Shown: positions 14,633 through 64,000, counted from the first letter of the stretch. The stretch: 64,000 nt of DNA from Candidatus Poribacteria bacterium (GCA_965205065.1 CBDBFT010000001.1:2156836-2220835), one strand, 5' to 3'. Notes: a model not told the origin generated them from the letters alone. Made by a program: numbers and translations.

Positions 14633-14644
14633 AGGAGGAAACAC

Positions 14645-15478: not shown

Positions 15479-15486
15479 GTACACTT

Positions 15487-16700: not shown

Positions 16701-16713
16701 TGGAGACATCAGA

Positions 16714-17877
16714 ATGAAACAGAAATACAAACTTGAAACCATCACCCCTGTCCACATCGGATCAGGCGAAACGTTGAATCATATAGATGGCTATTACGTT
16801 AACGGCAGGTGGTATCGCATAGATTTAGACAAAGTATTAGCACATCCATCAACAAACATCAACGCGTTAACCTCCGAAATGTCCAAGCGTGATTTCCGTT
16901 GGAGCGATTACTTCTCACGACACAACATAAATGGTGCTGAACTGTCGGCGTATAGTCTGCTGTGTTCGCAAAGTCCCGAAACAGTCGACATTCGAGAGGC
17001 AATCAAATCTGTTGACAACCGTCCCTACATTCCCGGTAGCAGCATCAAAGGTGCAATCCGCACAGCGTTGTTATCGGATCTGATAAACAGTGATGAAAAC
17101 AGAAAACTCTATAACGATAGTTCAAAATATCTCAACAGGGAAATTGATAAAGGCGCGCCATCAAGACGTAGACCAGAACATCCTGCACGACAGATAGAAA
17201 ACTTAGCTTTTGGTAAAGACCCAAACCATGATTTATTGCGTGCATTACAGGTGAGTGATACTGAACCGCTTGAAAGTGAGGCACTTGCAATTGAAACGGC
17301 ATGGACGGTTACGCTCAACCAAAACAATCAACTTGTTCAGAAGATTGAGGGCAATACAGAATACAAAAACTGTGCAGAGGTAATTCAGGGTGGACAATCA
17401 TTGACATTTACACTCAAAATTGATGATTGGTTACTTGATGATCCTGCATACACTAAACTTGGTTTTACCGATACACAATATGGAGCTATCCACAGTATAT
17501 TTGATGTTTGTTATGGGGTAAATAAAAATTTTATAGATAAAGAAATAAAATTCTATAATAATTTCGCGAGTATCTATAATCTCTATAACGGACTAAACAA
17601 TACGAATGAATCACTCTCAAACGGGGTGTTCATACTGCAAATTGGATGGGGCACAGGATACCTTTCTAACACAGTAACCTCGTCCTTTACGCAAGCAGAG
17701 GATGCACCTGTAGACATTATGGCATTACGAGAACGTTATCGTTTAGGCAGGAGTCGTTCTAATCAACGGCAACCTTATGATGCCCGCGAATTCCCGAAAA
17801 CACGTCGTATCTTATACCGAGGACCAAACCCCATCGCACCACTCGGCTGGGTTAAAATATCACCAATAGAGGATTAA
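16714..17877 (+). CDS. csm5: Csm5 (Cas7-group RAMP).
   Basis: ITPVHIGSGE near the N-terminus and RPYIPGSSIKGAIRTALLS motifs. 387 aa. Last gene of the csm operon. Confidence 0.8.
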   Translation: MKQKYKLETITPVHIGSGETLNHIDGYYVNGRWYRIDLDKVLAHPSTNINALTSEMSKRDFRWSDYFSRHNINGAELSAYSLLCSQSPETVDIREAIKSVDNRPYIPGSSIKGAIRTALLSDLINSDENRKLYNDSSKYLNREIDKGAPSRRRPEHPARQIENLAFGKDPNHDLLRALQVSDTEPLESEALAIETAWTVTLNQNNQLVQKIEGNTEYKNCAEVIQGGQSLTFTLKIDDWLLDDPAYTKLGFTDTQYGAIHSIFDVCYGVNKNFIDKEIKFYNNFASIYNLYNGLNNTNESLSNGVFILQIGWGTGYLSNTVTSSFTQAEDAPVDIMALRERYRLGRSRSNQRQPYDAREFPKTRRILYRGPNPIAPLGWVKISPIED

Positions 17878-17881
17878 AGAA

Positions 17882-18228
17882 CTTTTAATCGCACCAGTTT
17901 GGAATAGAAACTGACAATACTATGTAAAATGTGGTATAATTAAGTACTTTTAATCGCACCAGTTTGGAATAGAAACCATTATAATTGGAGACGGAATATT
18001 TTGCAGTCTAAACTTTTAATCGCACCAGTTTGGAATAGAAACGGGTGATTAATGACTCCCCGTAGCTCAGTGAATAGAGCATGAGGTTTCTACCCTCAGT
18101 GTCACAGGTTTGAATCCTGTCGGGGAGTCCACTTTTAATCGCACCAGTTTGGAATAGAAACACTCCCAAGTTGGACATGACTTATCAATAATGAAAAGCT
18201 TTTAATCGCGCCCGTTGTGTAAAGTTTT
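17882..18228 (+). CRISPR. Second, leaderless mini-array: four perfect copies and one degenerate terminal copy of the same 30-bp repeat. One inter-repeat unit is a tRNA-like gene.
   Basis: Perfect repeats at 17882-17911, 17947-17976, 18013-18042 and 18132-18161. A degenerate copy at 18199-18228 (CTTTTAATCGCGCCCGTTGTG...) marks the trailer end. The first repeat starts 4 nt after the csm5 stop. Confidence 0.9.
18056..18131 (+). tRNA. tRNA-Arg(UCU)-like gene with genome-encoded CCA, sitting between two CRISPR repeats.
   Basis: Manual fold: acceptor CTCCCCG/CGGGGAG, D-stem GCTC/GAGC, anticodon stem TGAGG/CCTCA with loop TTTCTAC (anticodon TCT), T-stem ACAGG/CCTGT, discriminator T, then CCA. Non-canonical D-loop (AGTGAATA, no GG pair) and T-loop (TTTGAAT). 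A19-U56 could covary. It may be a divergent or pseudo tRNA. Confidence 0.7.
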
Positions 18229-20339: not shown

Positions 20340-20560
20340 GTTACACCCATAGAAACGATGTTTTCATCCTTCCAATCTTCCCATCTTCCCATCTTCCACT
20401 CTTCCACTCTTCCACTCTTCCACTCTTCCATTCTTCCGGATCGGATCGTTTTACGATTGAGTCTCGTGGGTGCATCCTTCCCTCTTCCATCCTTCCCATC
20501 TTCCATCCTTCCCATCTTCCATCCTTCCCTCTTCCATCCTTCCCATCTTCCACCCATCCT
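20340..20560. repeat. GGAAGG-type minisatellite (reverse-complement orientation CTTCC/ATCTTCC).
   Basis: Direct reading. ORFs 20291..20578, 20307..20564 and 20341..20553 are low-complexity artefacts. Confidence 0.85.
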
Positions 20561-20567: not shown

Positions 20568-23267
20568 CTATTTAACAACTATTAGTCGTCGAGTCTGTTG
20601 GAATGACTCTGTTGTCAACTGGTAGAAATAGAGTCCACTTGCGACACTTTCACCGAAGGCGTTCTTACCATCCCAATAGGCAGCACGACCTCGGTCTTGA
20701 TAGAATCCTACCGATTGGAAACCGAGTGAAAAGGTTCGGACAACGCTACCTGTTGCGTTATATATCGTGATGGATACGTTGCTGTCTTCTGATAGACGAT
20801 AGGGTATCCACGTCTCTGGATTGAATGGGTTGGGATAGTTTTGTAATAACTCGCTCTGTTTCGGTGTGCCAATGCTGTCGAGTGTGACGGATAGAACAGC
20901 TTCTGCGACACTGGGGGGTGTTACTTCAAAGGTGAACGCGTCAGATGCAATATTACCGTCTGAGTCGGTAACGATGAGTTGCATGGTATCACCAACCTGA
21001 ACGACACTTCGGTAGCTGAGGTCCGCTGTAGCAGCGGCGAAGTAGTTATCCTTCACTTGTGTGGTCATAACGTTGTGCGTTCGCAGGTTTTTGACTGTGA
21101 TGTGATAACCGTCGTATGTCTGTTTACCGTCTAAGTGTCCACTTACGATAAATGCCCAATTCTGCTGCTGTGTTGCGATTTCCGTTGCGCTGGGAGCTGC
21201 AGCTGCGTCAGTTTTGTTGCGCCACTCTGCACCGACGAACGTGACATCGCGATCTGTTGTGACATTGACGATATAACCCTGTCCACCCTCAATTTGAAAT
21301 CCGTTATCCGGAGCGTTTGGTGTCCAACCGATGAACCTTTGGTTATCGGCATCAAGTGCGATGACCATTGTTGAACCTGTCAAACCTGCAAATGCTCTTG
21401 CATTCACCGGTTTCGGTGTTGCTAAAGGTAGCGATAGCATGTTCAAGCCTTTTGACAACTTTAGATTGAATATGTTGGCATACCGGTCGCTGTCTTCCTT
21501 GGTGGCGGGTCTCGCGATAAATCCGTGTTTTCGTCCATCGGCTGAGTTATAGTTCCCCACAACAGAACCGTCCTGATTGATATTCCAACCTTCTGTGCTA
21601 ACACTGCCTGGGAATACCAATGGACGTAGTCCGTACTGTAGTGATCCGACAGAAGTTCGGACGATATCGTCTAATCGTTTGGATCTGCCAACGAGAGTTC
21701 CCACATCGTTGATACCGTGCACAAAAAAGTACTCAAACGATGCAGCTTGGGGTAGGTCAAGGGAAATTATCCTCCCGTTAGGTTGCTGCACAAATGGATG
21801 ATAAACACCTTCATCAGAAATGTAGCTACCCACAATCTGTCCACTTGCATTTATAAAATATGCAAAAGTTTCCTGTGCATCTGTTGCTTCAATGATGATG
21901 TCTCCAGAGAATCCGCGTCGGATACCAGCGTCGTCTATAAAGTGTCCTGTTAGTGCGCCAGTTGCATCACTGATGCCGTATATCTCGGTTTGGACAGCAT
22001 TTGGGTAATCGTATTGTGTCAGTTCACCATTTTCTAAGATGACACCGTGAAACAGACCGTCGCTATCCTGATAGTGTCCGGCAGCTGATCCATCGTTTCC
22101 AAGTGCATAGAAATGCGTTTTCTGAGAGTCTGGATAATCATGAGTGGTAAAGACGCCGGAGATGAGCGTAAAAGCGACCTCTTTTCCAGCGGCATTCCGC
22201 GTGTATCCAGCATAATCGTCAAAGTCGCTACTTGCAGTCACCGCTAAAAAGTCTACACCGGGGACATCAATACTCTCAAAAGTAAAGTTGAGTTCTCCAG
22301 GTGTAGGGGTCGGAACGGGAATGTCTACGCCCGGTTCATCAGTGTCTGTTATAGGTCTTGCGATGAATCCGTGCCTCCGTCCATCTGCTGTTTCATAGTG
22401 TCCAACGATGGATCCATCTTGATTGATATTATATCCTTCTGTGCTAACGCTGTCTGGAACCCTAAGGATCTTTAACCCACCTTGAAATGTACCGACAAGT
22501 GTGCCCGGGAAATCATCAATGCGTTTAGTTCGGGCAACGACAACATTAGAATCGTTGATACCGTGTACAAAGAAGTATTCCAGCTGCGCCGCACCTGGCA
22601 GGTCAAGAGAAACAAATCGGCCCCTCGGTGTTCTGACATAAGGATGATATAAACCGTCAGCATCTATGTAACTTCCGACCATACCACCGCTTGCGTTGAC
22701 GAAATCAGCGAATGTTTCAGTCGCGCCGGGGACTTCAATTATTTCGTCTGCCGAGAACCCGCGTCGAACCCCCGATTCGTCTGTAAAGTTTCCTGTTAGT
22801 GCACCTGTGGCGTCACTAATACCGTATATTTCGGTTTGGACGGAACCTGGAAAATCGTATTGTCGCATCTCACCATTTTCTAAGACGACACCGTGGAACA
22901 GTCCATCGTTATCTTCGTAGTGTCCGGCAGCGTTTCCATTATTACCGAGTGCAAAGAAATATGTGTTTTTTGCATCGGGGAATTCGTAAGTTTTAAAGAC
23001 TCCATCAATGAGGGTGAAGGCGACATCTCTTTCGCCATCAGCACTGCGCGTATAACCTGCATAATCCTCAAAGTCGCTACTTGCAGTAATAGATAGACTG
23101 TCTACACCGGGAACCTCTATCGTTTCAAAAGTGTAGTTATCGCTGATAGAAGCGATAACAGGTTGAACGTTCCCTTGCGCGTCAATGTGCAATGGGAAAA
23201 ATGCATTGAGACACATGAAGAACGTAAACACAAAAAACAGTGAACTGGATTTAATCAAATTTCGCAT
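20568..23267 (-). CDS. Secreted multi-repeat protein with a T9SS C-terminal sorting domain (Por_Secre_tail). Paralog 1 of 2.
   Basis: The C-terminal about 80 aa (LLQNYPNPFNPETWIPYRL...ITIYNATGSVVRTF...YWDGKNAFGESVASGLYFYQL) match the T9SS CTD consensus. N-terminal signal peptide (MRNLIKSSSLFFVFTFFMCLNAFF). Two internal about 300-aa duplicated modules. Start set at the ATG at 23267, which has the RBS AAGGAG. Confidence 0.75.
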   Translation of the reverse strand: MRNLIKSSSLFFVFTFFMCLNAFFPLHIDAQGNVQPVIASISDNYTFETIEVPGVDSLSITASSDFEDYAGYTRSADGERDVAFTLIDGVFKTYEFPDAKNTYFFALGNNGNAAGHYEDNDGLFHGVVLENGEMRQYDFPGSVQTEIYGISDATGALTGNFTDESGVRRGFSADEIIEVPGATETFADFVNASGGMVGSYIDADGLYHPYVRTPRGRFVSLDLPGAAQLEYFFVHGINDSNVVVARTKRIDDFPGTLVGTFQGGLKILRVPDSVSTEGYNINQDGSIVGHYETADGRRHGFIARPITDTDEPGVDIPVPTPTPGELNFTFESIDVPGVDFLAVTASSDFDDYAGYTRNAAGKEVAFTLISGVFTTHDYPDSQKTHFYALGNDGSAAGHYQDSDGLFHGVILENGELTQYDYPNAVQTEIYGISDATGALTGHFIDDAGIRRGFSGDIIIEATDAQETFAYFINASGQIVGSYISDEGVYHPFVQQPNGRIISLDLPQAASFEYFFVHGINDVGTLVGRSKRLDDIVRTSVGSLQYGLRPLVFPGSVSTEGWNINQDGSVVGNYNSADGRKHGFIARPATKEDSDRYANIFNLKLSKGLNMLSLPLATPKPVNARAFAGLTGSTMVIALDADNQRFIGWTPNAPDNGFQIEGGQGYIVNVTTDRDVTFVGAEWRNKTDAAAAPSATEIATQQQNWAFIVSGHLDGKQTYDGYHITVKNLRTHNVMTTQVKDNYFAAATADLSYRSVVQVGDTMQLIVTDSDGNIASDAFTFEVTPPSVAEAVLSVTLDSIGTPKQSELLQNYPNPFNPETWIPYRLSEDSNVSITIYNATGSVVRTFSLGFQSVGFYQDRGRAAYWDGKNAFGESVASGLYFYQLTTESFQQTRRLIVVK

Positions 23268-23525
23268 AATATACTCCTTTTTTGGGACTTTCCTACCAAA
23301 GAACAATAATATCATTAGGTCTATGTTTCCATCGTAACGTTTTTTAAGATTATACCCTTTATGGTGTGAAATGTCAACCTACTGCACACTGAGAGTGTGT
23401 AAAGTTATTGTCACTAAACATTCAATACCTTCACCAATAATAGACATTCCTCTCTTGCATCTTTCCACTCTTCCACCCTTCCATCTTTCCACTCTTCCAC
23501 CCTTCTATCCACTGAGAACTGAAAC

Positions 23526-26189
23526 CTATTTAACAACGATCAACCGTCGGGTTTGTTGGAATGACTCTGTTGTCAACTGGTAGAAATAGAGTCCACTTGC
23601 GACACTTTCACCGAAGGCGTTCTTACCATCCCAATAGGCAGCGCGACCCCGGTCTTGATAGAAACCTACCGATTGGAAACCGAGTGAGAAGGTTCGGACA
23701 ACGCTACCTGTTGCGTCATATATCGTGATGGAAACCTTGCTATCTTCCGATAGACGATAAGGTATCCACGTCTCTGGATTGAACGGGTTGGGATAGTTTT
23801 GTAATAGCGCACTATGCTTCGGTGTGCCAATGCTGTCAAGTGTGATGGATAGAACCGCTTCTGCGATACTCGCGGGAGTTACTTCAAAGGTGAACGCGTC
23901 AGATGCAATATTACCGTTTGTATCGGTTACGGTCACTTCCATAGTATCACCAACCTGCACGACATTTCGGTAACTGAGGTCTGCTGTAGCCGCGGCGAAG
24001 TAGTTATCTTTTACTTGGGTGGTCATAAGGTTATGCGTTCGCAGGTTTTTGACTGTGATGTGGTACCCATCGTATTTATGCTTACCTTCCAAGTGTCCGC
24101 TTACGATAAATGCCCAGACTTCTTTTTGCTTAGATACGGCAGCGGGTGCAGCGGTTATCTCCGATTGATTTGTCCAGGGTGCCCCGACGAATAGAACACT
24201 GCGAGTTTCTGGGACGTTGACAATATATCCTTGTCCACCTTCAATTGTGAATCCATCGTCGGGCGCGCTTGGTGTCCAACCGATGAACCGTTGGTTTTCA
24301 GCATCAAGTGCGATTACCATTGTTGATCCAGCGATTCCCGCGAGTGATTTTGCTGTCATCGGCTGCTGTGTTGCTAAAGGTAGCGACAGCGAGTTCAGAC
24401 CTTTGGTGAGTGTAACGTTGAAGATGTTGCCGAAATTGTCACTTACTGTTTTTTCAGCGAGTCTTGCGATAAATCCGTGTCTGCGTCCATCCGCTGTATC
24501 ATAGTGTCCGACGACAGAACCATCCTGATTGATATTCCAACCCTCCGTGCTAACAGCACCGGGAAACTGCAATTCTTGTAGGTTGAGAGGACTGCCGACA
24601 TAAGTACGTGGAACATCACCGACCTCTTTGGCTCTACCAACGACAGCTCTTGCATTGTTGAGTCCGTGGAGAAAGAAGTATTCCAGGTTTGTTGCGTTTG
24701 GCAGGTCAATAGATAGAAATCTTCCGATTGAACTGCGCATGTATGCATGATATACCCCTGCGGCATCCTGGTAGCTGCCGACGATATGGCCTGTCCAACT
24801 CACAAAATCGGCATAAGTTGCCGATGCACTGGGAGCTTCAACTACTGTATCCCCTGAGAACCCACGACGAACACCAGAGGCATCTATATAACTGCCTGTC
24901 AATGCCCCCGTTGCATCACTTAGACCGTATATCTCGGTTTGAACTGCATCCGGAAAATCGTATCGTCGCAATTCGCCATTCTCTAAGATGACACCGTGGT
25001 ACAAACCATTGCTATCTTTGTAGTGTCCAGCAGCTGTCCCGTCATTACCGAGTGCATAGAAATAGGTTCCCTGCGAGTCAGGATAATCATAAGTGGTAAA
25101 AACGCCATTGATAAGTGTAAAAGCGACATCTTTTTCATCATTAGCATTCCGCATGTTGCCGGCGTAATCAAAAAAGTCGCTACTGGCAGTTACCGCTAAG
25201 AAATCTACACCGGGAACATTAATACTCTCAAAAGTATAGTTGAGTGCGGGGGGCACAACACCGGGTCGCGCTTGTGGAGTCCCCGGTTTCGGTCTCGCGA
25301 TAAACCCGTGTCTACGTCCATCCGCAGAGTCATAATGTCCTACGATAGAGTTGTCCTCATTAACATTCCATCCTTCCGTGCTGACGCTGCCTGGAAACTG
25401 CAATTCTTGTAAGGCGACCGGATTACCGGCATAAGTGCGTGGGACATCACCCGCCGTTTTGGCTCGACCGACAGCAATCAGGGCACTGTTGATTCCATGG
25501 AGAAAGAAGTATTCGAGATTTGCTTCTACAGGAAGGTCGAGTGTTGCAAAACTACCCCCTGGTCCACGCAGGTATGCATGATAATTACCTTCGGTGTCTA
25601 CGTAGCTACCCACGACATTGCCTATCGTGCTTACAAAGTCAGCATAAGTTTCCGTTGCGCCAGGATACGCAATTATTTCATCTCCTGAAAAACCACGACG
25701 CACACCGGCAGCATCCGTAAAATTACCAGTCAGTACACCCGTTGAATCGCTATACCCGTATATCTCCGTTTGGACAGCACCCGGATAATCGTATTGCCGC
25801 AACTCCCCGTTTTCTAATATGACGCCGTGGAAGAGTCCGTCGCTATCTTCGTAGTGTCCGGCTGCGACCCCATTATTACCGAGTGCGTAGAAATAAGTAT
25901 TTTGTGCCTCAGGGAAATCATAAGTTGTGTAAACGCCATCTATGAGTGTAAACGCGACGAATTTTTCACCATCAACACTATGCGTATAGCCTGCGTAATC
26001 CTCAAAGTCGCTACTGGCTGTTAAAGCTAAGAAATCTACACCGGGTACTTCTATCGTTTCAAAAGTATAGTTGTCACTAAGGGATGCTGCAACGTTTTGC
26101 GCTGTAGCGTTTGGTGGAAAAAAGGCATTGAGACATAGAGACATTGAAAACATGAAGAATAGAAAATAGGTTTTAATCAAATTTTGCAT
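23526..26189 (-). CDS. Secreted multi-repeat protein with a T9SS C-terminal sorting domain. Paralog 2, tandem to 20568..23267.
   Basis: Same architecture. The C-terminal 190 aa are nearly identical to the neighbour's. Signal peptide MQNLIKTYFLFFMFSMSLCLNAFF. Confidence 0.75.
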   Translation of the reverse strand: MQNLIKTYFLFFMFSMSLCLNAFFPPNATAQNVAASLSDNYTFETIEVPGVDFLALTASSDFEDYAGYTHSVDGEKFVAFTLIDGVYTTYDFPEAQNTYFYALGNNGVAAGHYEDSDGLFHGVILENGELRQYDYPGAVQTEIYGYSDSTGVLTGNFTDAAGVRRGFSGDEIIAYPGATETYADFVSTIGNVVGSYVDTEGNYHAYLRGPGGSFATLDLPVEANLEYFFLHGINSALIAVGRAKTAGDVPRTYAGNPVALQELQFPGSVSTEGWNVNEDNSIVGHYDSADGRRHGFIARPKPGTPQARPGVVPPALNYTFESINVPGVDFLAVTASSDFFDYAGNMRNANDEKDVAFTLINGVFTTYDYPDSQGTYFYALGNDGTAAGHYKDSNGLYHGVILENGELRRYDFPDAVQTEIYGLSDATGALTGSYIDASGVRRGFSGDTVVEAPSASATYADFVSWTGHIVGSYQDAAGVYHAYMRSSIGRFLSIDLPNATNLEYFFLHGLNNARAVVGRAKEVGDVPRTYVGSPLNLQELQFPGAVSTEGWNINQDGSVVGHYDTADGRRHGFIARLAEKTVSDNFGNIFNVTLTKGLNSLSLPLATQQPMTAKSLAGIAGSTMVIALDAENQRFIGWTPSAPDDGFTIEGGQGYIVNVPETRSVLFVGAPWTNQSEITAAPAAVSKQKEVWAFIVSGHLEGKHKYDGYHITVKNLRTHNLMTTQVKDNYFAAATADLSYRNVVQVGDTMEVTVTDTNGNIASDAFTFEVTPASIAEAVLSITLDSIGTPKHSALLQNYPNPFNPETWIPYRLSEDSKVSITIYDATGSVVRTFSLGFQSVGFYQDRGRAAYWDGKNAFGESVASGLYFYQLTTESFQQTRRLIVVK

Positions 26190-27179: not shown

Positions 27180-27545
27180 TATAGATGTATGGAAGGATGG
27201 AAGAGGAAGAGGAAGAGGAAGATTGGAAGAGGAAGGTTGGAAGAGGGGAAGAGGGGAAGGATGGAAGAGGAAGATTGGAAGGGTGGAAGAGGGAGATTGG
27301 AAGGATGGAAGGGTGGAAGAGGAAGATTGGAAGAGGAAGATTGGAAGGGTGGAAGAGGGAGATTGGAAGGGTGGAAGAGGAAGATTGGAAGAGGAAGATT
27401 GGAAGAGGAAGATTAGAAGAGGAAGATTGGAAGGGTGGAAGAGGGAGATTGGAAGAGGAAGATTGGAAGAGGAAGATTGGAAGAGGAAGATTGGAAGGTT
27501 GGAAGAGGGAGATTGGAGGAGTGGAAGAGGAAGAATACGGCAGAG
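27180..27545. repeat. GGAAGA/GGAAGG minisatellite (GAAGAGGAAGATTGGAAGGGTGGAAGAGGGAGATTG units).
   Basis: Direct reading. The overlapping ORFs 27111..27416, 27154..27579 and 27185..27556 are artefacts. Confidence 0.85.
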
Positions 27546-40195: not shown

Positions 40196-40800
40196 ATGGT
40201 TAGATTAGATGGAATGGGAAGGTTGGAAGAGGGGAAGGATGGAAGAGGGGAAGGATGGAAGAGGGGAAGGATGGAAGAGGGGAAGGATGGAAGAGGGGAA
40301 GGTTGGAAGAGGGGAAGGTTGGAAGAGGGGAAGGTTGGAAGAGGGGAAGGTTGGAAGAGGGGAAGGATGGAAGATGGGAAGGATGGAAGATGGGAAGGAT
40401 GGAAGATGGGAAGGTTGGAAGAGGGGAAGGATGGAAGAGGGGAAGGATGGAAGATGGGAAGGATGGAAGAGGGGAAGGTTGGAAGAGGGGAAGGATGGAA
40501 GAGGGGAAGGTTGGAAGAGGGGAAGGATGGAAGAGGGGAAGGATGGAAGATGGGAAGGATGGAAGATGGGAAGGTTGGAAGAGGGGAAGGATGGAAGAGG
40601 GGAAGGATGGAAGATGGGAAGGATGGAAGAGGGGAAGGTTGGAAGAGGGGAAGGATGGAAGAGGGGAAGGATGGAAGATGGGAAGGATGGAAGATGGGAA
40701 GGATGGAAGAGGGGAAGGTTGGAAGAGGGGAAGGATGGAAGATGGGAAGGATGGAAGAGGGGAAGGATGGAAGAGGGGAAGGGGTTGTTGTATAAAGCAG
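40196..40800. repeat. About 600-bp GGAAGG(A/T)TGGAAGAGGG minisatellite, the largest copy.
   Basis: Direct reading. All overlapping ORFs (40189..40809 and others) are artefacts. Followed by the AGCACAATCAAGGATGAATGTGCT hairpin and a GTGTAAAGTTTTTGTC motif. Confidence 0.9.
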
Positions 40801-54890: not shown

Positions 54891-56353
54891 CCCATAGGTG
54901 TCAACTTAAGAAAGATTAACGTTGTTTTTATACGATTAAAAGTGTTGCAAAAATTAAACACCTCTTGCATAATATAGAGTAAAGTTATTTTTATCTTATA
55001 AACTTATCAAGAGGTGTTCCAATGTTCATAATAACACAAGTTTCTAACATCATGCAAGAACTTTTCAACCCTTCAGTCGATCAAATAGTTCGGGAGTTAG
55101 GGATTATCCAAAGAATCCGAAAACTCCCGTTTGCCCGCTTCATTCAGACACTTGTATGTGGGTGGTTCGAAAAACCAGATGCGAGTTATGCTGATCTTGC
55201 TAATACAGCACAAGATTTGGGTATTGATATTTCTCGACAAGCGATTGCAAAACGGATGACCCCTGAGACAGCTAAAATACTCAAGGCAACACTTGAAGTA
55301 GCAGCAACTCAAGTCCTGACTGCGAGGAAGCAATATCTTCCGATGTTGGATCAGTTCACTGGTGTATATGTACAAGACAGCACTTGGATTGCCCTGCCAG
55401 ATGAACTTCACACAATACATGAAGCACCACGCAATAAGGGCAAACAACCCAAATCTGCCTTGAAACTCCAACTTTGCTTTGATGTTTTGACAGGCACTTT
55501 TCATCACTTTGATCTAACTGATGGGGTCATACCTGATAGTAAGGCTGCAGAACATTTTTCACCATTGCCTGAGGGAAGTTTGTGTTTAGCAGACCTCGGA
55601 TACTTTTCATTGGATGCGTTTGAAAAAATGACACAAAAGGGTGTCTCTTGGATATCAAAACTCAAAGCCAGATGTAAGCTATTTGACGAACTTGAAGAAC
55701 ATCTTTGTTTGACAGAGCGTCTTACCTCAGAAACCTTAGACGTTATTGATTTTAACTGCTTCATCGGTGCTACTAAGAAACTGCCTATACGGCTTGTCGC
55801 ATTACGACTTTCTGAAGAACAAGCAAACAGCCATCGCCGTGCCATCAGACGCGAAGCGGCGCGAAGAGGGGACACTCCATCAAAAGAACGCCTAAAACGC
55901 GCTGAGTGGTATGTTTTTATTACAAATGTTGATGCGACACAACTATCAGTAGAACAGATTGCAGCAACCACTCGCGTTCGATGGCAAGTTGAACTCATGT
56001 TTAAATGTTTCAAAAGTGTCGGAGAAGTAAACAAATCACGCAGAGAAAAACCATATGCTATTTTATGTGAGGTATATGCCAAACTTATAACACAACTCCT
56101 AAGACACTGGGTTATGATAGCAAGCGGTTGGCGATGTATACACCACAATATCATCAAAACAGCAGAACTCATTAATCTATACGCACGCAAAATTACAATC
56201 AGTTTGGGTAAATCCAAAACCGCACTACGAAAAACTCTTGAAGAAATAAAACAAACCTTACAAAAAAGTCAGAAGAGGATACAAAATCAAGGGAAAAACA
56301 CAACTTTAGTACTTCTACAAGGAGTAGAAAATCCTTAAGTTGACACCTATGGG
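54891..56353 (+). mobile_element. IS4-family insertion sequence (transposase CDS 55022..56338) with about 18-bp TIRs CATAGGTGTCAACTTAAG, inserted in a long palindromic intergenic element.
   Basis: Transposase with DDE_Tnp_1-like motifs (VYVQDSTW, CLADLGYFS, RVRWQVELMFKCFK). Inverted termini read directly. A direct duplication GGGTTTCGTGCCTCAACCC flanks the element. Confidence 0.75.
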
Positions 56354-57817: not shown

Positions 57818-57906
57818 GATTCCTCCTATGATGAGTTGTCAGTTGTCAGTTTTTAGTTATCAGTTAATTTAGCGTTCTTATGAAAACTTGTAAAGGAAAA
57901 ATTCTA

Positions 57907-59052
57907 ATGAAGATTGCAACTATTGAACAATTCTATCCACGTCGTCGGATGCGGTTTGTAAAAATTACAACGGACACCGGCATCGTTGGATGGGGTGAAA
58001 CAACACTTGAAGGTAAACCGAAGAGTACCTGGTCGGCAGTTGAAGAACTTGCCGAGTATTTTATCGGTAAAGATCCGTTACGTATTGAACACCATTGGCA
58101 GCATGTCTACCGATCCGCATTCTTCCGAGGTGGCAATATCTTGATGTCTGCCTTGTCCGGAATTGATCAAGCACTATGGGATATTGCGGGCAAATTTTAC
58201 GATGTGCCGACGTATCAACTCTTAGGTGGTGCTGTGCGTGACCGAATCCGCGTTTATGCACATTGGGGTATCGGCAGTTTAACTGACGAAGGCAAAGCCG
58301 CTGCAAAAGAACGGCTTGAATCTTTACAGCAGAAAGGCGGTTACACAGCGTTTAAGAGCGGTCCTGGTGGCAAATGGCGTGGTCATGAACCTCCTGCCGT
58401 GATTGACGCGTTTGTTGAACGTGCCTATCTGATGCGCGAATGGGTAGGTCCGGATGTTGAACTTGCCTTTGATTTTCACGGTAAGATGACACCTGCACTT
58501 GCGATTGAAATCTGTCATGAACTTAAAGGTATGCGTCCAATGTTCGTTGAAGAACCTGTCCCACAAGAGAACGTTGATGCGTTAAAGGTAGTTTCTGACC
58601 ATGTTCCATTTCCGATTGCCACAGGCGAACGTCTGCTGACACGCTGGGGTTTTCGTGAAGTTTTTGAGAAACAAGCAGTTGCTTATCTACAACCTGATAC
58701 TTCCCACGCTGGCGGTATTACCGAACTGAAGAAAATCGCTAATATGGCTGAGGTGTACTATATGCATATTGCACCGCATTGCGCGATTGGACCGATTGCT
58801 TTTTCTGCCTCCCTTCATGTTGATGCTGTTGTGCCGAATTTCTTAATCCAAGAACAGATTGATGCCGGTTTAGGTGCTGGTTTGTTTAAAGAAGATTGGC
58901 AAGTGAAAAACGGACACATTGAATTACCAACGAAACCCGGACTCGGTTTTGAGATTGATGAGAAAGAGGCGGAACAGACGCTTGATACCTATCCAGAAGA
59001 ACTCGGCGGCGAATACTATTATGACATTGACGGTAGCGTTGCGGATTGGTAG
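57907..59052 (+). CDS. Enolase-superfamily dehydratase (D-galactonate dehydratase / mandelate racemase-like).
   Basis: MKIATIEQF...ITTDTGIVGWGE N-terminus and metal-ligand D/E positions. Start set at the ATG at 57907. Confidence 0.75.
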   Translation: MKIATIEQFYPRRRMRFVKITTDTGIVGWGETTLEGKPKSTWSAVEELAEYFIGKDPLRIEHHWQHVYRSAFFRGGNILMSALSGIDQALWDIAGKFYDVPTYQLLGGAVRDRIRVYAHWGIGSLTDEGKAAAKERLESLQQKGGYTAFKSGPGGKWRGHEPPAVIDAFVERAYLMREWVGPDVELAFDFHGKMTPALAIEICHELKGMRPMFVEEPVPQENVDALKVVSDHVPFPIATGERLLTRWGFREVFEKQAVAYLQPDTSHAGGITELKKIANMAEVYYMHIAPHCAIGPIAFSASLHVDAVVPNFLIQEQIDAGLGAGLFKEDWQVKNGHIELPTKPGLGFEIDEKEAEQTLDTYPEELGGEYYYDIDGSVADW

Positions 59053-59073
59053 ACGCAATCCATCAGACAAAAT

Positions 59074-60234
59074 TATACCATTTAAATTATATATTTTCCC
59101 TTTTATATATTTTTGATTTCTGCTATACTTTTTTTAATTCTACAAATTAGAGGTTAGAAATCAATGAACATCAAACCCCCAGAGATTACAGAAAGTGTTT
59201 CAGAGTTGAAGCGTTTGATAAGAAAATCACCAAAAGGTTTTCACAAGCAAAGACTTACAATGCTATATCTATATCGGAGCGGCCAGGTAAAAACTCGTAA
59301 AGAAGCAGCAGAGATGATAGGTGTCCACCGAAAAACGGTTGGAAAATGGTTATCAACTTATGCCTCCGCAGGACTTAATGGACTTTTGGAACGAGATTAT
59401 TCCTCTGGGCGTCCTCATCAACTCACTAAAGAACAACAAGAACTTTTGCGTGAGAAACTCCAAGACCCGGAAGGTTTCTCAAGTTACCACCAGATTATAG
59501 ATTATATTGAAGAGACATTTGGTGTCAAAATGAACTATCATGCTGTTTATGCTTTAGTCCACTATAAATGGAATGCCAAACTCAAGGTGCCCCGCAAAAG
59601 TCACGAAAAAAAAAACGAAAAAGCGTGTGATGAGTTCAAGCTAAACTTCGGAGAAACAATCAAGACTGCCATTTCAGAGAAAGTTTCTTCTTTTGAAACG
59701 ATCCGGATCTTTTGTCAAGATGAGACAAGATTTGGTTTATTGCCTGTTTCATATCGGCGTATTACCTTGCCCGGTATCAAACCGATTACTAAGGTCAGTT
59801 ATACTTATGAGAACTTTTATCTATATGGTGCTGTAGAACCGATAACAGGACAAAGTTTCTTTCTTGAGATGCCTTTGCTCAATGGTTCTTGTTTCCAAGT
59901 ATTCCTTGATGAGTTTGCTAAAGTTTATCATTCATCTCTAAATGTCCTTGTTCTTGATAATGGGCGTTTTCATCACGGGAAATCTCTACAAATACCTGAT
60001 AATGTCATTTTGGTTTTTCTACCACCTTATAGTCCTGAACTGAACCCTATAGAAAGACTTTGGCAAGACACAAAAGCAAAGTTATTTGAAAATGTCTTCA
60101 CAGCCATAACAGAAATGCAGAACAAACTTACCGAAATATTGAAAAAATATACGGAAACCACTATTGCAAGTATAACAAATACCGATTATATAACAAAAGT
60201 GGCAAATGGAATATAATTTAATACAAATGGTATT
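59074..60234 (+). mobile_element. IS630-family insertion sequence (transposase CDS 59164..60216) with imperfect about 20-bp TIRs.
   Basis: Transposase with N-terminal HTH and a DDE region with YSPELNPIE. Left TACCATTTAAATTATAT and right ATATAATTTAATACAAATGGTA are inverted. Confidence 0.75.
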
Positions 60235-60239
60235 ATATA

Positions 60240-60986
60240 TCAAACAACCGGTTTACGATGTGAAACATAAGGCGGTTCAAGCATTAACTTCTGATCTTCC
60301 TCAGTCATCATATTGTGGAGTGCTTCGTCATATCTTTCTCGTCCCCAAGAGGCATGTCCTGGAGAATACTTGAACAGAATTGAACGACGTTGATGTGTTG
60401 CTGTCCACGGTAAAGTGCCGTGCGTCAACGCTTCTGTGAAGATGACAACATCACCTGCTTTCTGATGGACTGGTGCCATACAGGTTCTGTTTTCTACTAC
60501 GGGACGGAACTGTGGCGGACACGGATAGTTGCTTTTATGACTACCAGGAATACAACAGAATCCACCATGTCCAGGAAGCATGTCTGTCAATGCCCACGAC
60601 ACAACGGTCAAACCGTTATACATCCTGTCATTACGAAAGACATAGTATTGTGATGGATCGTAAGGTGTACCGCCACCATGAAGTGTACCGCCTGGATTCC
60701 CATCTATCATCAAGATTCCGTAGACATGATCAAGTCGGAATTTTGGTCCGACAATTTCTGCTAAACACGGCATGATGCGGGGGTGATTGAGAAGTTTACG
60801 AAAAGCATCGTTTTCCCAGCTTAAGAATCCACCGAATCGTTGTGAATGGATGTTATCATTAGCCGGTGCAGGATAGTTTTGTGCGTCTATCAACGCATTC
60901 AATTCCGTGAGTTCATCATTTTGTAAAACACCTTCAATATTGACATATCCCCATAGGTCAAACAGATATTTTTCTTCAGCGTTCAT
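60240..60986 (-). CDS. Phytanoyl-CoA dioxygenase (PhyH)-like Fe(II)/2OG oxygenase.
   Basis: H-x-D...H pattern and GGFCCIPGSHK. Moderate. Confidence 0.55.
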   Translation of the reverse strand: MNAEEKYLFDLWGYVNIEGVLQNDELTELNALIDAQNYPAPANDNIHSQRFGGFLSWENDAFRKLLNHPRIMPCLAEIVGPKFRLDHVYGILMIDGNPGGTLHGGGTPYDPSQYYVFRNDRMYNGLTVVSWALTDMLPGHGGFCCIPGSHKSNYPCPPQFRPVVENRTCMAPVHQKAGDVVIFTEALTHGTLPWTATHQRRSILFKYSPGHASWGRERYDEALHNMMTEEDQKLMLEPPYVSHRKPVV

Positions 60987-61016
60987 ACAGTATCTCCCCA
61001 GTTTGTGCTATTACGC

Positions 61017-61340
61017 TTATTGATGTGGTGAGCGCGAGGTTGGTAGTAAACGTGTAACAACGATCTTGGATCGGTCGATGAGTTCACCGACTCGTGCTGA
61101 GATTTCGTTAACCCATCGGTCATCCTCATAGACTGCAGCGTAGAGCCGTTCCCGCTGTTCTTCACTTTCAAACCGACGGATCCAGACGTAAAGATCGTCC
61201 TCTTCTTCACCGATGAAACTACCGATAACGACCATACCTTTAGAAATTTGGAAAGGTATGACCGTTTCTTCCATGTATTTCACCCAGTTTTCATGTTGTC
61301 CGGGTTGTGTTCTATATTGACGTAGTTCAAAAAATGCCAT
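61017..61340 (-). CDS. NIPSNAP-family protein.
   Basis: MAFFELRQYRTQPG N-terminus. Start set at the second ATG, which has a GGAG RBS. Confidence 0.6.
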   Translation of the reverse strand: MAFFELRQYRTQPGQHENWVKYMEETVIPFQISKGMVVIGSFIGEEEDDLYVWIRRFESEEQRERLYAAVYEDDRWVNEISARVGELIDRSKIVVTRLLPTSRSPHQ

Positions 61341-61423
61341 ATAAATCTCCTTCATTTTTAAAAATCAAGATTCCAAAACGCCTTTATTGCTAACTTACTT
61401 TCATTAGATTAGACTTATATCTC

Positions 61424-62359
61424 TTACTGTTTATTTTCCTGCTCCGCAGGAATAGATTGACCTACAGGTTCTTTTTGCCACCGTTTCTGTATAGCATGAA
61501 CATGGAGGTAATTCCCCAATTCTTGCAAATCTATATGCTCATAATCCTCTTTAGCAATAACAATTGTAAGGTTTTCACAAAATTTCCTTTCGGTATATAT
61601 AGCTCTGATGAAGGATTCAATTATCTCAACAAGCATTATTTCTCGAGGGACTTGAATTCGAGCATCTTTTGTGCCTATAATTGGGATTACAAGGTTGCTG
61701 AGTCTACCATGTGTGCCGATATACTGCCAAAGTTTTGTGAGACTTTGCCTAACATTTTCAAGTGAACTTACTACACCTTCTTCATTCAACTCATCAATTG
61801 CGACTAAGTAAACGACCTGATTTTTAGGAGATACTTTTACCACAGTGCCAAAGTCGTAGCGTTTTGTGTTGCCAGACTTATTTTCCACTAGCGTATATTT
61901 TTCATCCTGCAATGTTCCCACTAATTCTTGGTGAAGATGATCGACCTTATCATAATACTTTTTTGTAAATTGCCCCTGCAAACTATCTTCAGAAATCATT
62001 CCATCTGACATATCTGTATCAAAAGTGGTATTTGTACCAATAATAATATCTCCTTTCATATTAAAAATGTTGCCTACTTGAATTATTATTGAAATGTCTG
62101 TTCCTTCTAAGCGTTCACGTACCGAAAGCATCCTTTTGGATTTTCGCCGGACATCTATAGTAGTGAAAACTAATGCTCCACTAGCGCATACAATTAATAC
62201 CCAAAAGTTCCCAGATGCCCATTGCATAGCATCAGGAATGAAAAAAGCGGACATTTCAATTAGCAACCAAGCCCCGCCTAGGATACTTAGAAAGGTTTTC
62301 AATCCCCCAATTAATAGGGATCGGCGTTGGTTTTTAGAAAGGAGAATAGGCAATTTCAT
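61424..62359 (-). CDS. ThsA-like Thoeris effector candidate: two N-terminal TM helices plus a macro-like domain.
   Basis: Hydrophobic helices at about residues 14-36 and 44-66. Macro-like motifs DISIIIQVGNI...GDIIIGTNTTFD and NLVIPIIGTKDARI. 4-bp overlap with the upstream TIR gene. Confidence 0.55.
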   Translation of the reverse strand: MKLPILLSKNQRRSLLIGGLKTFLSILGGAWLLIEMSAFFIPDAMQWASGNFWVLIVCASGALVFTTIDVRRKSKRMLSVRERLEGTDISIIIQVGNIFNMKGDIIIGTNTTFDTDMSDGMISEDSLQGQFTKKYYDKVDHLHQELVGTLQDEKYTLVENKSGNTKRYDFGTVVKVSPKNQVVYLVAIDELNEEGVVSSLENVRQSLTKLWQYIGTHGRLSNLVIPIIGTKDARIQVPREIMLVEIIESFIRAIYTERKFCENLTIVIAKEDYEHIDLQELGNYLHVHAIQKRWQKEPVGQSIPAEQENKQ

Positions 62360-62859
62360 AAACCTAATTTATCATATACACTTTCGGCGTAATAATATGG
62401 GCCTGTTTTTCCTTCTTGTTTCAAAGACGCATGGGTTTCAGGCCAAGTTGATAAGGCATGACCTAGAATAATGGCGTTGAAGCAGATATGAACAGCCAAT
62501 TGATCGTCGATAGTGGGCGGACACCGATCCGTATCTTGGAATCTTAAACCGTTCAAGTTAACGCCGATTATTGGTAAACCTAAATCCAATGCTTGTTCCA
62601 TTTCCCATTGTACAAACTTATGGAGGTAGCGCGTACTTTCACCAATCAAAACAATTAAACTTTTAGCCGACTGAATCCGTTTTCTGAGTTCGCGTTTGAT
62701 TTTTTCTTCTGCATTATATTCAGATGCCTTATTCAAGTCTTGTCCATGATAAAAGTTGAAGTGTGTATCGTGGTTTCGTTTCCACGTTTGCATTATCTGG
62801 TAGTAACGAAAGTCATTATAACCGTCAAAGCAAACGTAGACTCTGTCTTTATTTGCCAT
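62356..62859 (-). CDS. ThsB-like TIR-domain protein (DUF1863/MTH538 type).
   Basis: RVYVCFDGYNDFRYYQIMQTWKRN and SLIVLIGESTRYLHKFVQWEMEQALDLGLPIIGVNLN parallel the B. cereus ThsB segments RVFFSFHYQDVIDFRVNVVRNHW and VLIGSQTFNRRWVRYEIMKSIEKGNKIIGIHIN. Confidence 0.7.
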   Translation of the reverse strand: MANKDRVYVCFDGYNDFRYYQIMQTWKRNHDTHFNFYHGQDLNKASEYNAEEKIKRELRKRIQSAKSLIVLIGESTRYLHKFVQWEMEQALDLGLPIIGVNLNGLRFQDTDRCPPTIDDQLAVHICFNAIILGHALSTWPETHASLKQEGKTGPYYYAESVYDKLGL

Positions 62860-63598
62860 AATCTCACCTTCTTACTTTTAAAATTAATCAAAATTATGAT
62901 TTAATTTTGTAGCTAATTGCAGGTATATGTCTTATGTTACGTACATCTTCTCATAAGGATATCGATTAAAAACTGCCTATAGAAAATTAACGGATCTATT
63001 TCAAAAATTTTCATTATAGAGGCATAAGGCAATTTGTGGATCCTACGATGGACACTAAGTTCGATTCTTCAAGAATCATATATATAGTGAACTTTAGAAT
63101 TAATGAAACACTTCACAAAGGTCAAGGTGGCTTCGTCCTTATGCGGGGTGTTCTTTGTAAACGTTCAAATGTCCCATTAATTATTCACTTTACTATAGTT
63201 TACCACACTACAACCGATCATAACCATAACCTTTTCCAGTAATCTCATAAAGCGGAGATGCGGCTTGGAAATGTATATCCGCATCTGAGTCTTCCAAAAG
63301 AGTTTCAAGCAACTTGATCGGACTATCACTTTTTGCGTCTCCTAACGCTTGTATAATATTGATTCGGAATGCGCGTTCTGTTTGGTCAGCATGCAACTTC
63401 AACACGGAGGAATTCAATAGAATCTAACTCCGGTAGACATCCGGTTAAGTCCAGTGTTCTAATAGTGAGTTTAAACGGAGACTTAACTTTGTAATTGTTC
63501 ATGAGATATGACCTACCAATAATCAAGATTGTAATGAGGTATAAAAGTCTACCACCCGTTTTGTCTATGTGTCAAGTGGATTTTAAAGTTGAACAAGG

Positions 63599-64000
63599 TT
63601 ATCTATCGCCCGGTTGTCTGTTGGTTAGGCGGATATCGTTTAGGATGTCATCCCAATCCCACAGAAGCACAGTGCCATCTTCAGACCCGCTTGCAAGCGT
63701 TTTACCATCGGGTGAGAAGGTTAAAGCATTTATCGGCTCTGTATGACCGTAAAGTGTTAGCAGCCTAACGCCAGTTGTCATATCATATAACTGAATCTGT
63801 GCTTCACAGAACCAATCATGCAAGAGATGATGTGCCTCAAGAAAGATGGTGTTATCAGGGGATATTGCATAAACCCTTATGTTCAAGGATGAGTCACTTC
63901 CATCTATATCACCAATTGGAAGTGGTTCAGTTGGTACACTGACGTCCCATAATAAAACTTCAGAACGACTACCACAGGCGAGTATATTGCCATCTGCAGA
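63599..64000 (-). CDS. WD40-repeat protein fragment, partial at the window edge. An adjacent HEAT-like ORF is at 63208..63417.
   Basis: LASGSEDGTVLLWDW and HTEPINALTFSPDG WD motifs. The reading frame stays open upstream to the window end. Confidence 0.4.
   Translation of the reverse strand, partial: SADGNILACGSRSEVLLWDVSVPTEPLPIGDIDGSDSSLNIRVYAISPDNTIFLEAHHLLHDWFCEAQIQLYDMTTGVRLLTLYGHTEPINALTFSPDGKTLASGSEDGTVLLWDWDDILNDIRLTNRQPGDR

What the first reader, a model, noticed from the sequence alone, without database searches (positions are those of the whole stretch)
61424..62859. Type II Thoeris-like pair: TIR (ThsB) and 2TM-macro (ThsA)
62356..62859 carries the DUF1863 TIR signature, with segment-by-segment similarity to B. 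cereus ThsB. It overlaps by 4 bp a downstream gene with two TM helices and a macro-like fold (GDIIIGTNTTFD; PIIGTKDARI).

That architecture matches the TM-macro ThsA of type II Thoeris, where a TIR-made ADPR-derived signal activates a membrane effector. It is flanked by IS630, NIPSNAP and HEAT/WD40 fragments, an accessory context.
Basis: partly seen in the sequence, partly recalled or inferred. Interest (0 to 1): 0.7.

Follow-up and report, generated by a model that had tools for sequence, protein, structure and literature searches.

The report
Type II Thoeris anti-phage gene pair
Two overlapping genes encode an ordinary, intact type II Thoeris anti-phage system, in which a TIR enzyme makes an alarm molecule that switches on a membrane-anchored Macro-domain effector; it sits in a probable Poribacteria genome and is a new member of a well-described family.

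Summary
Window 62356..62859 (-) encodes a 167-aa ThsB (PF08937 5e-18; PADLOC ThsB 2e-61 over its full length). It overlaps by ATGA a 311-aa ThsA at 61424..62359 (-), which has two N-terminal membrane helices and a ThsA-type Macro domain (PF20016 1e-44; PADLOC ThsA 5e-61).

AlphaFold models (pLDDT 86 and 89) match solved type II Thoeris proteins best: EcThsB2 8v6t (TM 0.88), and the ThsA Macro structures 8v6q, 8r66 and 8v6s (TM 0.82-0.85). ThsB keeps the Tyr-Glu active site (Y8, E86) and the C-terminal tail (Y157, Y162) of the ThsB class found only in TM-macro systems. The thsB-thsA pair recurs in 70 of 81 related loci across many phyla, including archaea. Both genes are under purifying selection (dN/dS 0.19 and 0.25).

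The most likely mechanism comes from characterised homologues. ThsB senses infection and makes His-ADPR from NAD+. ThsA binds the signal, oligomerises in the membrane and stops phage replication.

One caveat: this pair belongs to a catalogued subfamily (PDLC00414/PDLC00429) different from the experimentally studied ones. Several ligand-contact residues differ (N97, Q128, D189, K231, A269), so the exact signal is inferred.

Verdict: new member of a known kind, low interest.

The parts
62356..62859 (-). thsB: a 167-aa TIR-like signal synthase of the EcThsB2-like 'subfamily 9' class
   Evidence: ORF. PF08937 5e-18. PADLOC PDLC00429 2.2e-61 over 1-167/167. PDB 8v6t 2.4e-20 full length and 7.8e-39 by profile. 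AF2 pLDDT 85.9. Foldseek 8v6t TM 0.88, rmsd 2.1 A.
62602..62604 (-). Codon for ThsB E86, the predicted catalytic glutamate (equivalent to EcThsB2 E89)
   Evidence: Alignment to 8v6t. Invariant in 68 homologues. The reference residue is given in PMC11204291.
62836..62838 (-). Codon for ThsB Y8, the active-site tyrosine that marks ThsB proteins of TM-macro systems (EcThsB2 Y8)
   Evidence: Alignment to 8v6t. At least 90% conserved in the family. Significance from PMC11204291.
62356..62359 (-). ATGA overlap of the thsB stop and the thsA start (translational coupling, one operon)
   Evidence: Sequence read directly. The same 0-nt junction occurs in the Poribacteria relatives L001-L005, L007 and L012.
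61424..62359 (-). thsA: a 311-aa effector with two N-terminal TM helices and a C-terminal ThsA-type Macro domain
   Evidence: ORF. PF20016 1.4e-44. PADLOC PDLC00414 4.9e-61. PDB ThsA Macro hits 9uuz, 8r66, 8v6q and 8v6s. AF2 pLDDT 89.1. Foldseek.
62237..62317 (-). ThsA TM helix 1 (residues ~15-41; contains K21 and E35)
   Evidence: Kyte-Doolittle peaks. AF2 helix 9-40. Four K/R before it, so the N-terminus is cytoplasmic.
62153..62212 (-). ThsA TM helix 2 (residues ~50-69), followed by a K/R-rich stretch (RRKSKR)
   Evidence: Kyte-Doolittle peaks. AF2 helix 52-77. Seven K/R in residues 69-85 place the Macro domain in the cytoplasm.
61556..62089 (-). ThsA Macro domain (residues 91-268), the predicted binding site for the ADPR-derived signal
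   Evidence: PF20016 positions 1-182/183. Foldseek 8v6q/8v6r/8r66/8v6s E 1e-14 to 1e-12, TMt 0.81-0.85, rmsd 2.2-3.3 A, against about 1e-7 for generic macro domains. Pocket residues mapped.
62864..62870 (-). Shine-Dalgarno-like AAGGTGA, 4 nt upstream of the thsB ATG
   Evidence: Sequence read directly. Its function is inferred.
63013..63040 (-). Possible sigma-70-like promoter (TCCACA-16-TATAAT) in the AT-rich 348-bp spacer upstream of thsB. Weak evidence only.
   Evidence: Consensus scan, 10 of 12 matches. The number of such sites in the region is no higher than in shuffles (9 against 8.7), so this is only a candidate.

Best explanation
This is an intact two-gene type II Thoeris anti-phage system, thsB followed by thsA, transcribed as one unit and translationally coupled.

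Shown here: the domain families, the folds, the active-site residues, the membrane topology, the conserved gene pairing and purifying selection.

Inferred from characterised homologues:
1. On phage infection the TIR-like ThsB becomes active. It uses E86, held by Y8, to displace nicotinamide from NAD+ and transfer ADP-ribose to free histidine, making His-ADPR.
2. His-ADPR binds the cytoplasmic Macro domain of ThsA, which sits in the inner membrane through two N-terminal helices (N-in topology).
3. Ligand binding drives ThsA dimers into higher-order oligomers. These cluster the TM helices and damage the membrane or arrest growth, so the phage cannot complete replication.
For: - Families: PF08937 5e-18 and PF20016 1.4e-44. 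PADLOC ThsB 2.2e-61 (1-167/167) and ThsA 4.9e-61.
- Solved relatives by sequence are exclusively Thoeris proteins.
- Folds: the ThsA model (pLDDT 89) matches EcThsA, BaThsA with His-ADPR, and PcThsA with IAD at TMt 0.81-0.85. The ThsB model (pLDDT 86) matches EcThsB2 at TM 0.88 over the full length, including the tail.
- ThsB residues: Y8, E86 (invariant), Y157 and Y162 (invariant) correspond to EcThsB2 Y8, E89, Y159 and Y164.
- ThsA pocket: kept are R234 (Ba R240, which contacts the histidine carboxylate), Q130 (Ba Q135), L127 (Ec L113), D114 (Ec D100) and N110.
- Topology: positive-inside charge pattern 4 / 0 / 7 K+R.
- Synteny: a subfamily-9 ThsB lies directly upstream of ThsA in 70 of 81 loci from many phyla.
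- Selection: dN/dS 0.19 (thsB) and 0.25 (thsA) against the 81-86% identical orthologues.
- Mechanism literature: His-ADPR signalling and its Macro-domain contacts (10.1101/2024.01.03.573942). Ligand-induced oligomerisation and the TM-macro-specific ThsB class (PMC11204291). A P. aeruginosa system with the same thsB-thsA order makes His-ADPR (10.64898/2026.06.04.730250). E. coli thsA-thsB2 is sufficient for defence and needs the TM helices (10.64898/2026.01.22.701046).
Against: - No experiment exists on this pair or on any member of its PADLOC subfamily (ThsA PDLC00414, ThsB PDLC00429). The characterised Ba and Ec ThsA Macro domains fall in PDLC00413, and EcThsB2 falls in PDLC00440.
- Several ligand-contact positions differ from the solved complexes: adenine-N6 Asp is N97, distal-ribose Asn is Q128, Ser is D189, the loop Gly is K231, and the adenine-stacking Tyr/His is A269.
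- Purified EcThsB2, the closest solved ThsB, showed no NADase activity in vitro (PMC11204291).
- The locus is not in a defence island, and its neighbours have no PADLOC hits.
- The host is uncultured, and its phages and the trigger are unknown.
Confidence: 0.85

Rival explanations
1. Same architecture and logic, but a different signal. This subfamily's ThsB would conjugate ADP-ribose to a base or amino acid other than histidine, or make a plain ADPR/IAD-like nucleotide, and the remodelled Macro pocket would be tuned to that molecule.
For: - Five of about ten ligand-contact positions differ from the His-ADPR, ADPR and IAD complexes: N97, Q128, D189, K231, A269.
- Q128 replaces the ribose-contacting Asn in 99 of 109 family members.
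- The pair belongs to PADLOC subfamilies different from the characterised ones.
- ThsA Macro domains can bind ADPR and IAD as well, and other ThsB proteins use other imidazole bases (PMC11204291).
Against: - The Arg that binds the histidine carboxylate (Ba R240) is kept as R234, and it is R or K in 80 of 109 homologues.
- The ThsB active site (Y8/E86) and tail are those of the class that includes the His-ADPR-producing BaThsB, according to PMC11204291.
- The D-to-N and N-to-Q changes are conservative hydrogen-bonding substitutions.
- Most contacts to the diphosphate and riboses are made by backbone atoms.
Confidence: 0.12
2. It is a type II Thoeris system, but the effector does not kill the cell through a membrane pore. 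Activation would instead cause reversible growth arrest or a non-lytic block of phage replication.
For: The E. coli ATCC 25922 thsA-thsB2 system has a ThsB2 of the same subfamily 9. It protected without NAD+ depletion, culture collapse or standard markers of cell death (10.64898/2026.01.22.701046). The ThsA mechanism is called 'poorly characterized' in 10.64898/2026.06.04.730250.
Against: Other sources describe oligomerisation at the membrane and a cell-killing pore. The two-helix TM module, with K21 and E35 in helix 1, resembles the amphipathic TM1 described for EcThsA and for CBASS TM effectors. Nothing in the sequence can tell the two outcomes apart.
Confidence: 0.3
3. It is a decaying or non-defence remnant: a TIR/Macro pair that no longer works as an immune system, or that serves a housekeeping ADP-ribose function.
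For: Transposases and a truncated HEAT gene show local rearrangement. The locus sits among metabolic genes. NCBIfam has no model that matches either protein.
Against: Both ORFs are full length against their HMMs and have no frameshifts. The catalytic and structural residues are intact. dN/dS is 0.19 and 0.25, well below 1. The ATGA coupling is kept. The MacroD-type hydrolase family is not the best match.
Confidence: 0.04

Closest known systems
Bacillus amyloliquefaciens Y2 type II Thoeris (ThsA TM-Macro, PDB 8r66/9uuz; ThsB, probably PDB 9uv0), the reference His-ADPR system
   Same: Two-gene system with a 2TM + ThsA_Macro effector and a single DUF1863/TIR ThsB. Same Macro fold (Foldseek E 7e-14, TMt 0.83, rmsd 2.3 A). 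R240, Q135, D119 and N115 equivalents are kept.
   Different: About 24% identity in the Macro domain. A different PADLOC subfamily (PDLC00413 against PDLC00414). D100 is N97, N133 is Q128, S194 is D189 and Y277 is A269. ThsB is only distantly similar (E 3.7e-5 with the single sequence).
E. coli CFT073 / ATCC 25922 TM-macro Thoeris (EcThsA 8v6q/8v6r; EcThsB2 8v6t)
   Same: ThsB is closest to EcThsB2, matching over its full length with the same Y8/E89 active site and the C-terminal tail tyrosines. The ThsA Macro fold matches. thsA plus thsB2 alone suffice for defence.
   Different: The E. coli locus has a second, unrelated ThsB1, and in ATCC 25922 thsB2 is described as oriented opposite to the other genes. 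Here there is a single ThsB directly upstream, overlapping thsA. About 30% (ThsB) and 21% (ThsA Macro) identity over the Foldseek alignments.
Pseudomonas aeruginosa MRSN11538 type II Thoeris (thsB-thsA)
   Same: Same two-gene thsB-then-thsA order. Reported to produce His-ADPR on infection, and defence needs the Macro-domain binding site.
   Different: The trigger there (side tail fibre plus chaperone) cannot be carried over to unknown Poribacteria phages.
Type I Thoeris (SIR2-SLOG ThsA plus TIR ThsB, 3'cADPR signal)
   Same: The same sensor-signal-effector logic, with a TIR-family ThsB.
   Different: The effector here has no SIR2 or SLOG domain. ThsA Macro domains do not bind 2'cADPR or 3'cADPR. 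The B. cereus ThsB match is weak.
CBASS two-helix TM effectors
   Same: A nucleotide-sensing cytoplasmic domain fused to two TM helices. Ligand-induced oligomerisation is proposed to disrupt the membrane.
   Different: A different sensor domain (Macro, not SAVED/STING or similar) and a different signal synthase (TIR, not CD-NTase).

Membership tests
Type II Thoeris (TM-macro ThsA + TIR ThsB) | Effector with a C-terminal ThsA-type Macro domain (PF20016) | tested here: met
   PF20016 1.4e-44, positions 1-182/183. PADLOC ThsA 4.9e-61. Foldseek best hits are 8v6q, 8v6r, 8r66 and 8v6s.
Type II Thoeris (TM-macro ThsA + TIR ThsB) | Two N-terminal transmembrane helices on ThsA, with the Macro domain in the cytoplasm | tested here: met
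   Hydropathy peaks at 14-44 and 47-72. AF2 helices 9-40 and 52-77. Positive-inside charge pattern. No dedicated TM predictor was available.
Type II Thoeris (TM-macro ThsA + TIR ThsB) | An adjacent, co-oriented TIR-like ThsB gene (PF08937) in the same operon | tested here: met
   4-bp ATGA overlap. PF08937 5e-18. The pair is conserved in 70 of 81 loci.
Type II Thoeris (TM-macro ThsA + TIR ThsB) | Catalytic glutamate in ThsB | tested here: met
   E86 aligns with EcThsB2 E89 and is invariant in 68 homologues.
Type II Thoeris (TM-macro ThsA + TIR ThsB) | Ligand-binding residues of the Macro pocket as in the His-ADPR, ADPR and IAD complexes | tested here: inconclusive
   Kept: R234, Q130, L127, D114, N110, G229 and T230 (Ser in Ec). 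Changed: N97 (Asp), Q128 (Asn), D189 (Ser), K231 (Gly), A233 (Thr), A269 (Tyr/His). The model coordinates could not be inspected to check pocket geometry.
Type II Thoeris (TM-macro ThsA + TIR ThsB) | ThsB produces His-ADPR on infection, and ThsA binds it | not testable with these tools
   Needs LC-MS and binding assays. Inferred only from homologues.
Type II Thoeris (TM-macro ThsA + TIR ThsB) | Confers phage resistance that requires both genes | not testable with these tools
   Shown for Ba, Ec and Pa homologues, not for this pair.
ThsB 'subfamily 9' (EcThsB2 class, specific to TM-macro systems; Shi et al. 2024) | An active-site tyrosine next to the catalytic glutamate | tested here: met
   Y8 aligns with EcThsB2 Y8 and is at least 90% conserved. 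The hydrogen bond itself was not measured.
ThsB 'subfamily 9' (EcThsB2 class, specific to TM-macro systems; Shi et al. 2024) | [quoted passage not shown] | tested here: met
   Y157 and Y162 align with Y159 and Y164, and Y162 is invariant. The full-length structural match to 8v6t spans 173 columns at TM 0.88, and the tail has pLDDT of about 96.
Type I Thoeris | SIR2-SLOG ThsA effector | tested here: not met
   ThsA has no SIR2 or SLOG hit; only PF20016 matches.
MacroD-type ADP-ribosyl hydrolase / DarTG-type macro antitoxin | Best match to a hydrolase macro family, with a partner DarT toxin | tested here: not met
   Generic macro domains match about 7 orders of magnitude worse than ThsA Macro. 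The partner is a TIR-like protein, not DarT.

The most novel reading that the evidence does not exclude
The PDLC00414/PDLC00429 subfamily to which this pair belongs has a remodelled Macro pocket (N97, Q128, D189, K231, A269). It has no experimentally studied member that I could identify. It might signal with an ADPR conjugate other than His-ADPR, which would add a new second messenger to TIR immunity. The subfamily is spread across bacteria and also occurs in archaea (Methanogenium marinum, a Halobacteriota MAG).
Probability: 0.1. Interest if true: 0.55.

Novelty: new member of a known kind. Interest (0 to 1): 0.2.

Why it matters
As it stands, this is a routine annotation: a standard defence-finder tool would call it a type II Thoeris system, and both proteins match existing PADLOC models end to end. 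There are three modest points of value.
- It documents an intact TIR-signalling immune system in a probable Candidatus Poribacteria genome, alongside a very large type III-A CRISPR array in the same 64 kb.
- It shows that the most common environmental subfamily of TM-macro ThsA differs at several ligand-contact positions from the three or four crystallised proteins. Whether His-ADPR is the universal type II signal is therefore still open for this clade.
- The same thsB-thsA cassette occurs in archaea, which is relevant to how TIR signalling spread.

Tried and rejected
- NCBIfam: no model matches either protein. This reflects library coverage, not evidence against the assignment.
- Exact-sequence look-up of the window's ThsA (P0001) found no contig on record. 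Context came from the 81% orthologue instead.
- Promoter and terminator scan: the counts are no higher than in shuffles, so no promoter or terminator claim is made beyond one candidate.
- Rfam over the whole window: nothing near the locus, only two tRNAs elsewhere.
- NIPSNAP and PhyH as possible third components: rejected. They accompany the pair only in the nearest relative (L001/L002; L048 has a distant 28%-identity PhyH hit about 5 kb away) and have no PADLOC hits.
- The three 350-aa ORFs as possible IS630 copies: rejected. The other two are a GHMP kinase and a zinc alcohol dehydrogenase, and the IS is single-copy in the window.
- The 'WxxxE' motif mutated in E. coli ThsB2: only the Trp (W26) is invariant here (WKRNH), so I did not use it as a membership criterion.
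One structure collection call failed and was repeated.
- Antisense ORFs at 61457..61765 and 62094..62471 (+) were treated as spurious, because they lie inside the two well-supported genes.

Full report
**1. The observation**

The junction reads GGTTT-ATGA-AATTG, so the upstream stop TGA overlaps the downstream ATG by 4 bp. An AAGGTGA Shine-Dalgarno-like element lies 4 nt upstream of the first ATG. Both quoted motifs are present. The flanks are also as described:
- an IS630-type DDE_3 transposase at 59164..60216
- PhyH at 60240..60986
- NIPSNAP at 61017..61355
- a 69-aa HEAT remnant at 63208..63417
- the 3' end of a WD40 gene that runs off the window

**2. What the proteins are**

- Pfam places the first protein in ThsB_TIR (PF08937, 5e-18). 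It places the second in ThsA_Macro (PF20016, 1.4e-44, covering 182 of 183 profile positions).
- PADLOC defence models match both nearly end to end: ThsB PDLC00429 at 2.2e-61 (1-167/167) and ThsA PDLC00414 at 4.9e-61. NCBIfam has no model for either.
- By sequence, the only significant solved relatives are Thoeris proteins. For ThsA these are the Macro structures 9uuz, 8r66, 8v6q/r and 8v6s (1e-10 to 2e-5 with the single sequence, 9e-25 to 5e-18 with a family profile). For ThsB it is EcThsB2, 8v6t (2.4e-20 and 7.8e-39).
- The AlphaFold2 ThsA model, built on a 76-sequence alignment, has pLDDT 89.1 and pTM 0.82. Its best Foldseek PDB hits are EcThsA, BaThsA bound to His-ADPR and PcThsA bound to IAD (E 1e-14 to 1e-12, TMt 0.81-0.85, rmsd 2.2-3.3 A). 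Generic macro domains follow at about 1e-7.
- The ThsB model has pLDDT 85.9. It superposes on EcThsB2 over its whole length (TM 0.88, rmsd 2.1 A). The next hits include DNPH1 and nucleoside 2'-deoxyribosyltransferases, the same resemblance noted by Shi et al. (PMC11204291).

**3. Anatomy**

ThsA has two hydrophobic helices, at about residues 15-41 and 50-69, which the model shows as helices 9-40 and 52-77. Four K/R precede TM1, none lie in the 10-residue loop, and seven follow TM2. By the positive-inside rule, the N-terminus and the Macro domain both face the cytoplasm. TM1 carries K21 and E35, while TM2 is more uniformly hydrophobic. This resembles the description of EcThsA.

In ThsB, Y8 and E86 align with the EcThsB2 active-site pair Y8/E89. 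Y157 and Y162 align with the tail residues Y159/Y164. Across 68 homologues, E86 and Y162 are invariant and Y8 and Y157 are at least 90% conserved. ThsB therefore belongs to the 'subfamily 9' class. [quoted passage not shown] They suggested it produces His-ADPR because the B. amyloliquefaciens ThsB shares its features.

**4. Conservation and context**

A genome scan returned 80 related loci. The closest (81% ThsA identity) and several others are Candidatus Poribacteria MAGs, so the window is probably poribacterial.

HMM searches of all 81 fetched loci gave these arrangements:

| Arrangement | Loci |
|---|---|
| Subfamily-9 ThsB directly upstream of ThsA, same strand, gap 0-124 nt | 70 of 81 (one cut by a contig end) |
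| A more divergent ThsB downstream of ThsA | 6 |
| Only a weak ThsB hit upstream | 2 |
| No ThsB found (one of these at a contig edge) | 3 |

The hosts span many bacterial phyla and two archaea: Methanogenium marinum and a Halobacteriota MAG.

In the nearest relative the order is HEAT(1303 aa)-thsB-thsA-NIPSNAP-PhyH. In the window the HEAT gene is reduced to its last 69 codons, and an IS630 element plus an enolase-family gene are inserted downstream. NIPSNAP and PhyH accompany the pair only in that relative and have no PADLOC hits, so they are not part of the system.

Against the orthologues, dN/dS is 0.19 for thsB and 0.25 for thsA, so both genes are under purifying selection. The pair is AT-richer than the window (37-39% GC against 42.7%).

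**5. Mechanism**

Shown here: the family assignments, folds, catalytic residues, topology, operon structure, conserved pairing and selective constraint.

Inferred from characterised homologues:
- ThsB is activated by infection and converts NAD+ plus histidine into His-ADPR, by displacement of nicotinamide at the catalytic Glu (10.1101/2024.01.03.573942 and 10.1101/2025.02.20.638879).
- His-ADPR binds the ThsA Macro domain.
- ThsA dimers then form open-ended oligomers along the membrane, which clusters the TM helices (PMC11204291).
- The outcome is described as a cell-killing pore. For an E. coli thsA-thsB2 system it was instead growth arrest without markers of cell death.
- A P. aeruginosa system with the same thsB-thsA order makes His-ADPR.

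**6. Where it differs from the characterised systems**

I mapped the ligand contacts of BaThsA (D100, N133, Q135, S194, R240, Y277) and EcThsA (D83, L113, N114, S175, S217, G218, T220, H259) onto this protein and 109 homologues.

- Conserved: R234 (contacts the histidine carboxylate), Q130, L127, the structural D114, and N110.
- Changed: N97 (D in 79, N in 24 homologues), Q128 (Q in 99 of 109), D189, K231 (G in 77, K in 28), A233, and A269 (S, H, Y or F in most).

The Ba and Ec Macro domains score best on PADLOC PDLC00413 (277 and 336 bits), while this protein scores best on PDLC00414 (204 bits, against 109 on PDLC00413). EcThsB2 is PDLC00440 and this ThsB is PDLC00429. The pair therefore belongs to a sister subfamily that is catalogued but, as far as I could establish, has not been studied experimentally. 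This leaves a small chance that its signal is not His-ADPR.

**7. Verdict**

This is a new member of a known kind, and standard defence annotation tools would call it. Interest is low (0.2). The only open point is the identity of the ligand for this subfamily.

Noticed in passing
window 21..9440 and 17882..18161: A very large CRISPR array: 141 perfect copies of the 30-nt repeat CTTTTAATCGCACCAGTTTGGAATAGAAAC, running off the window start, plus a 4-repeat mini-array downstream of the cas genes.
   Followed up: partly
window 11551..17877 (+): A complete type III-A effector module: cas10/csm1 (HD + palm), csm2, csm3, csm4 and csm5. A type II methyltransferase-like gene at 10489..11511 precedes it (PADLOC MTase_II 5e-118). 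No adaptation genes or accessory nuclease were looked for.
   Followed up: partly
window 18043..18131: The last 'spacer' of the mini-array is 89 nt long and contains a full tRNA (Rfam RF00005, 18056..18128 +, 61 bits), flanked by perfect CRISPR repeats at 18013..18042 and 18132..18161. A tRNA gene embedded between CRISPR repeats is unusual and unexplained.
   Followed up: no
window 9689..10284, 20369..20559, 23447..23509, 27190..27534, 40216..40782: Recurrent purine-rich tandem repeats with period 8/16 (TGGAAGGA; GGGAAGGATGGAAGAG x35 at 40216..40782). They generate ORFs in all six frames at about 40.2-40.8 kb. The 9609..10304 ORF is largely made of them.
   Followed up: no
window 60240..62859 vs L001 9495..12108: Against the nearest Poribacteria relative, synonymous divergence of thsB and thsA (dS 0.38, 0.42) is 2-3 times lower than that of the adjacent NIPSNAP and PhyH genes (0.88, 1.21), while dN/dS is about 5 times higher. 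This fits a more recent exchange of the Thoeris cassette between lineages, but it rests on one pairwise comparison.
   Followed up: partly
window 57880..60244 and 62860..64000 vs L001: Local rearrangements relative to the syntenic relative. The 1303-aa HEAT-repeat gene upstream of thsB is reduced to a 69-codon 3' remnant next to a WD40 gene. An IS630-type transposase plus an enolase-superfamily gene lie where the relative goes almost directly from PhyH to a sulfatase. A second transposase (DDE_Tnp_1) is at 55022..56338.
   Followed up: partly
window 20568..23315 and 23526..26189 (-): Two tandem paralogous proteins of about 900 aa, recognisable only by their C-terminal FlgD_ig / Por_Secre_tail (T9SS-type sorting) domains. 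The N-terminal ~800 residues have no Pfam hit at 1e-5.
   Followed up: no
loci L026 (Halobacteriota MAG), L032 (Methanogenium marinum DSM 15558): The same thsB-thsA cassette (ThsB E about 1e-86, gap 13-18 nt) occurs in archaeal genomes, which suggests inter-domain transfer of type II Thoeris.
   Followed up: no
loci L029, L033, L057, L061, L063, L069: In six loci, including Pectobacterium zantedeschiae, Chryseobacterium, Pedobacter and Rickettsiales, the order is thsA then a much more divergent ThsB (E 1e-19 to 1e-22 against the subfamily-9 profile). This is a distinct ThsB class paired with a similar ThsA.
   Followed up: no
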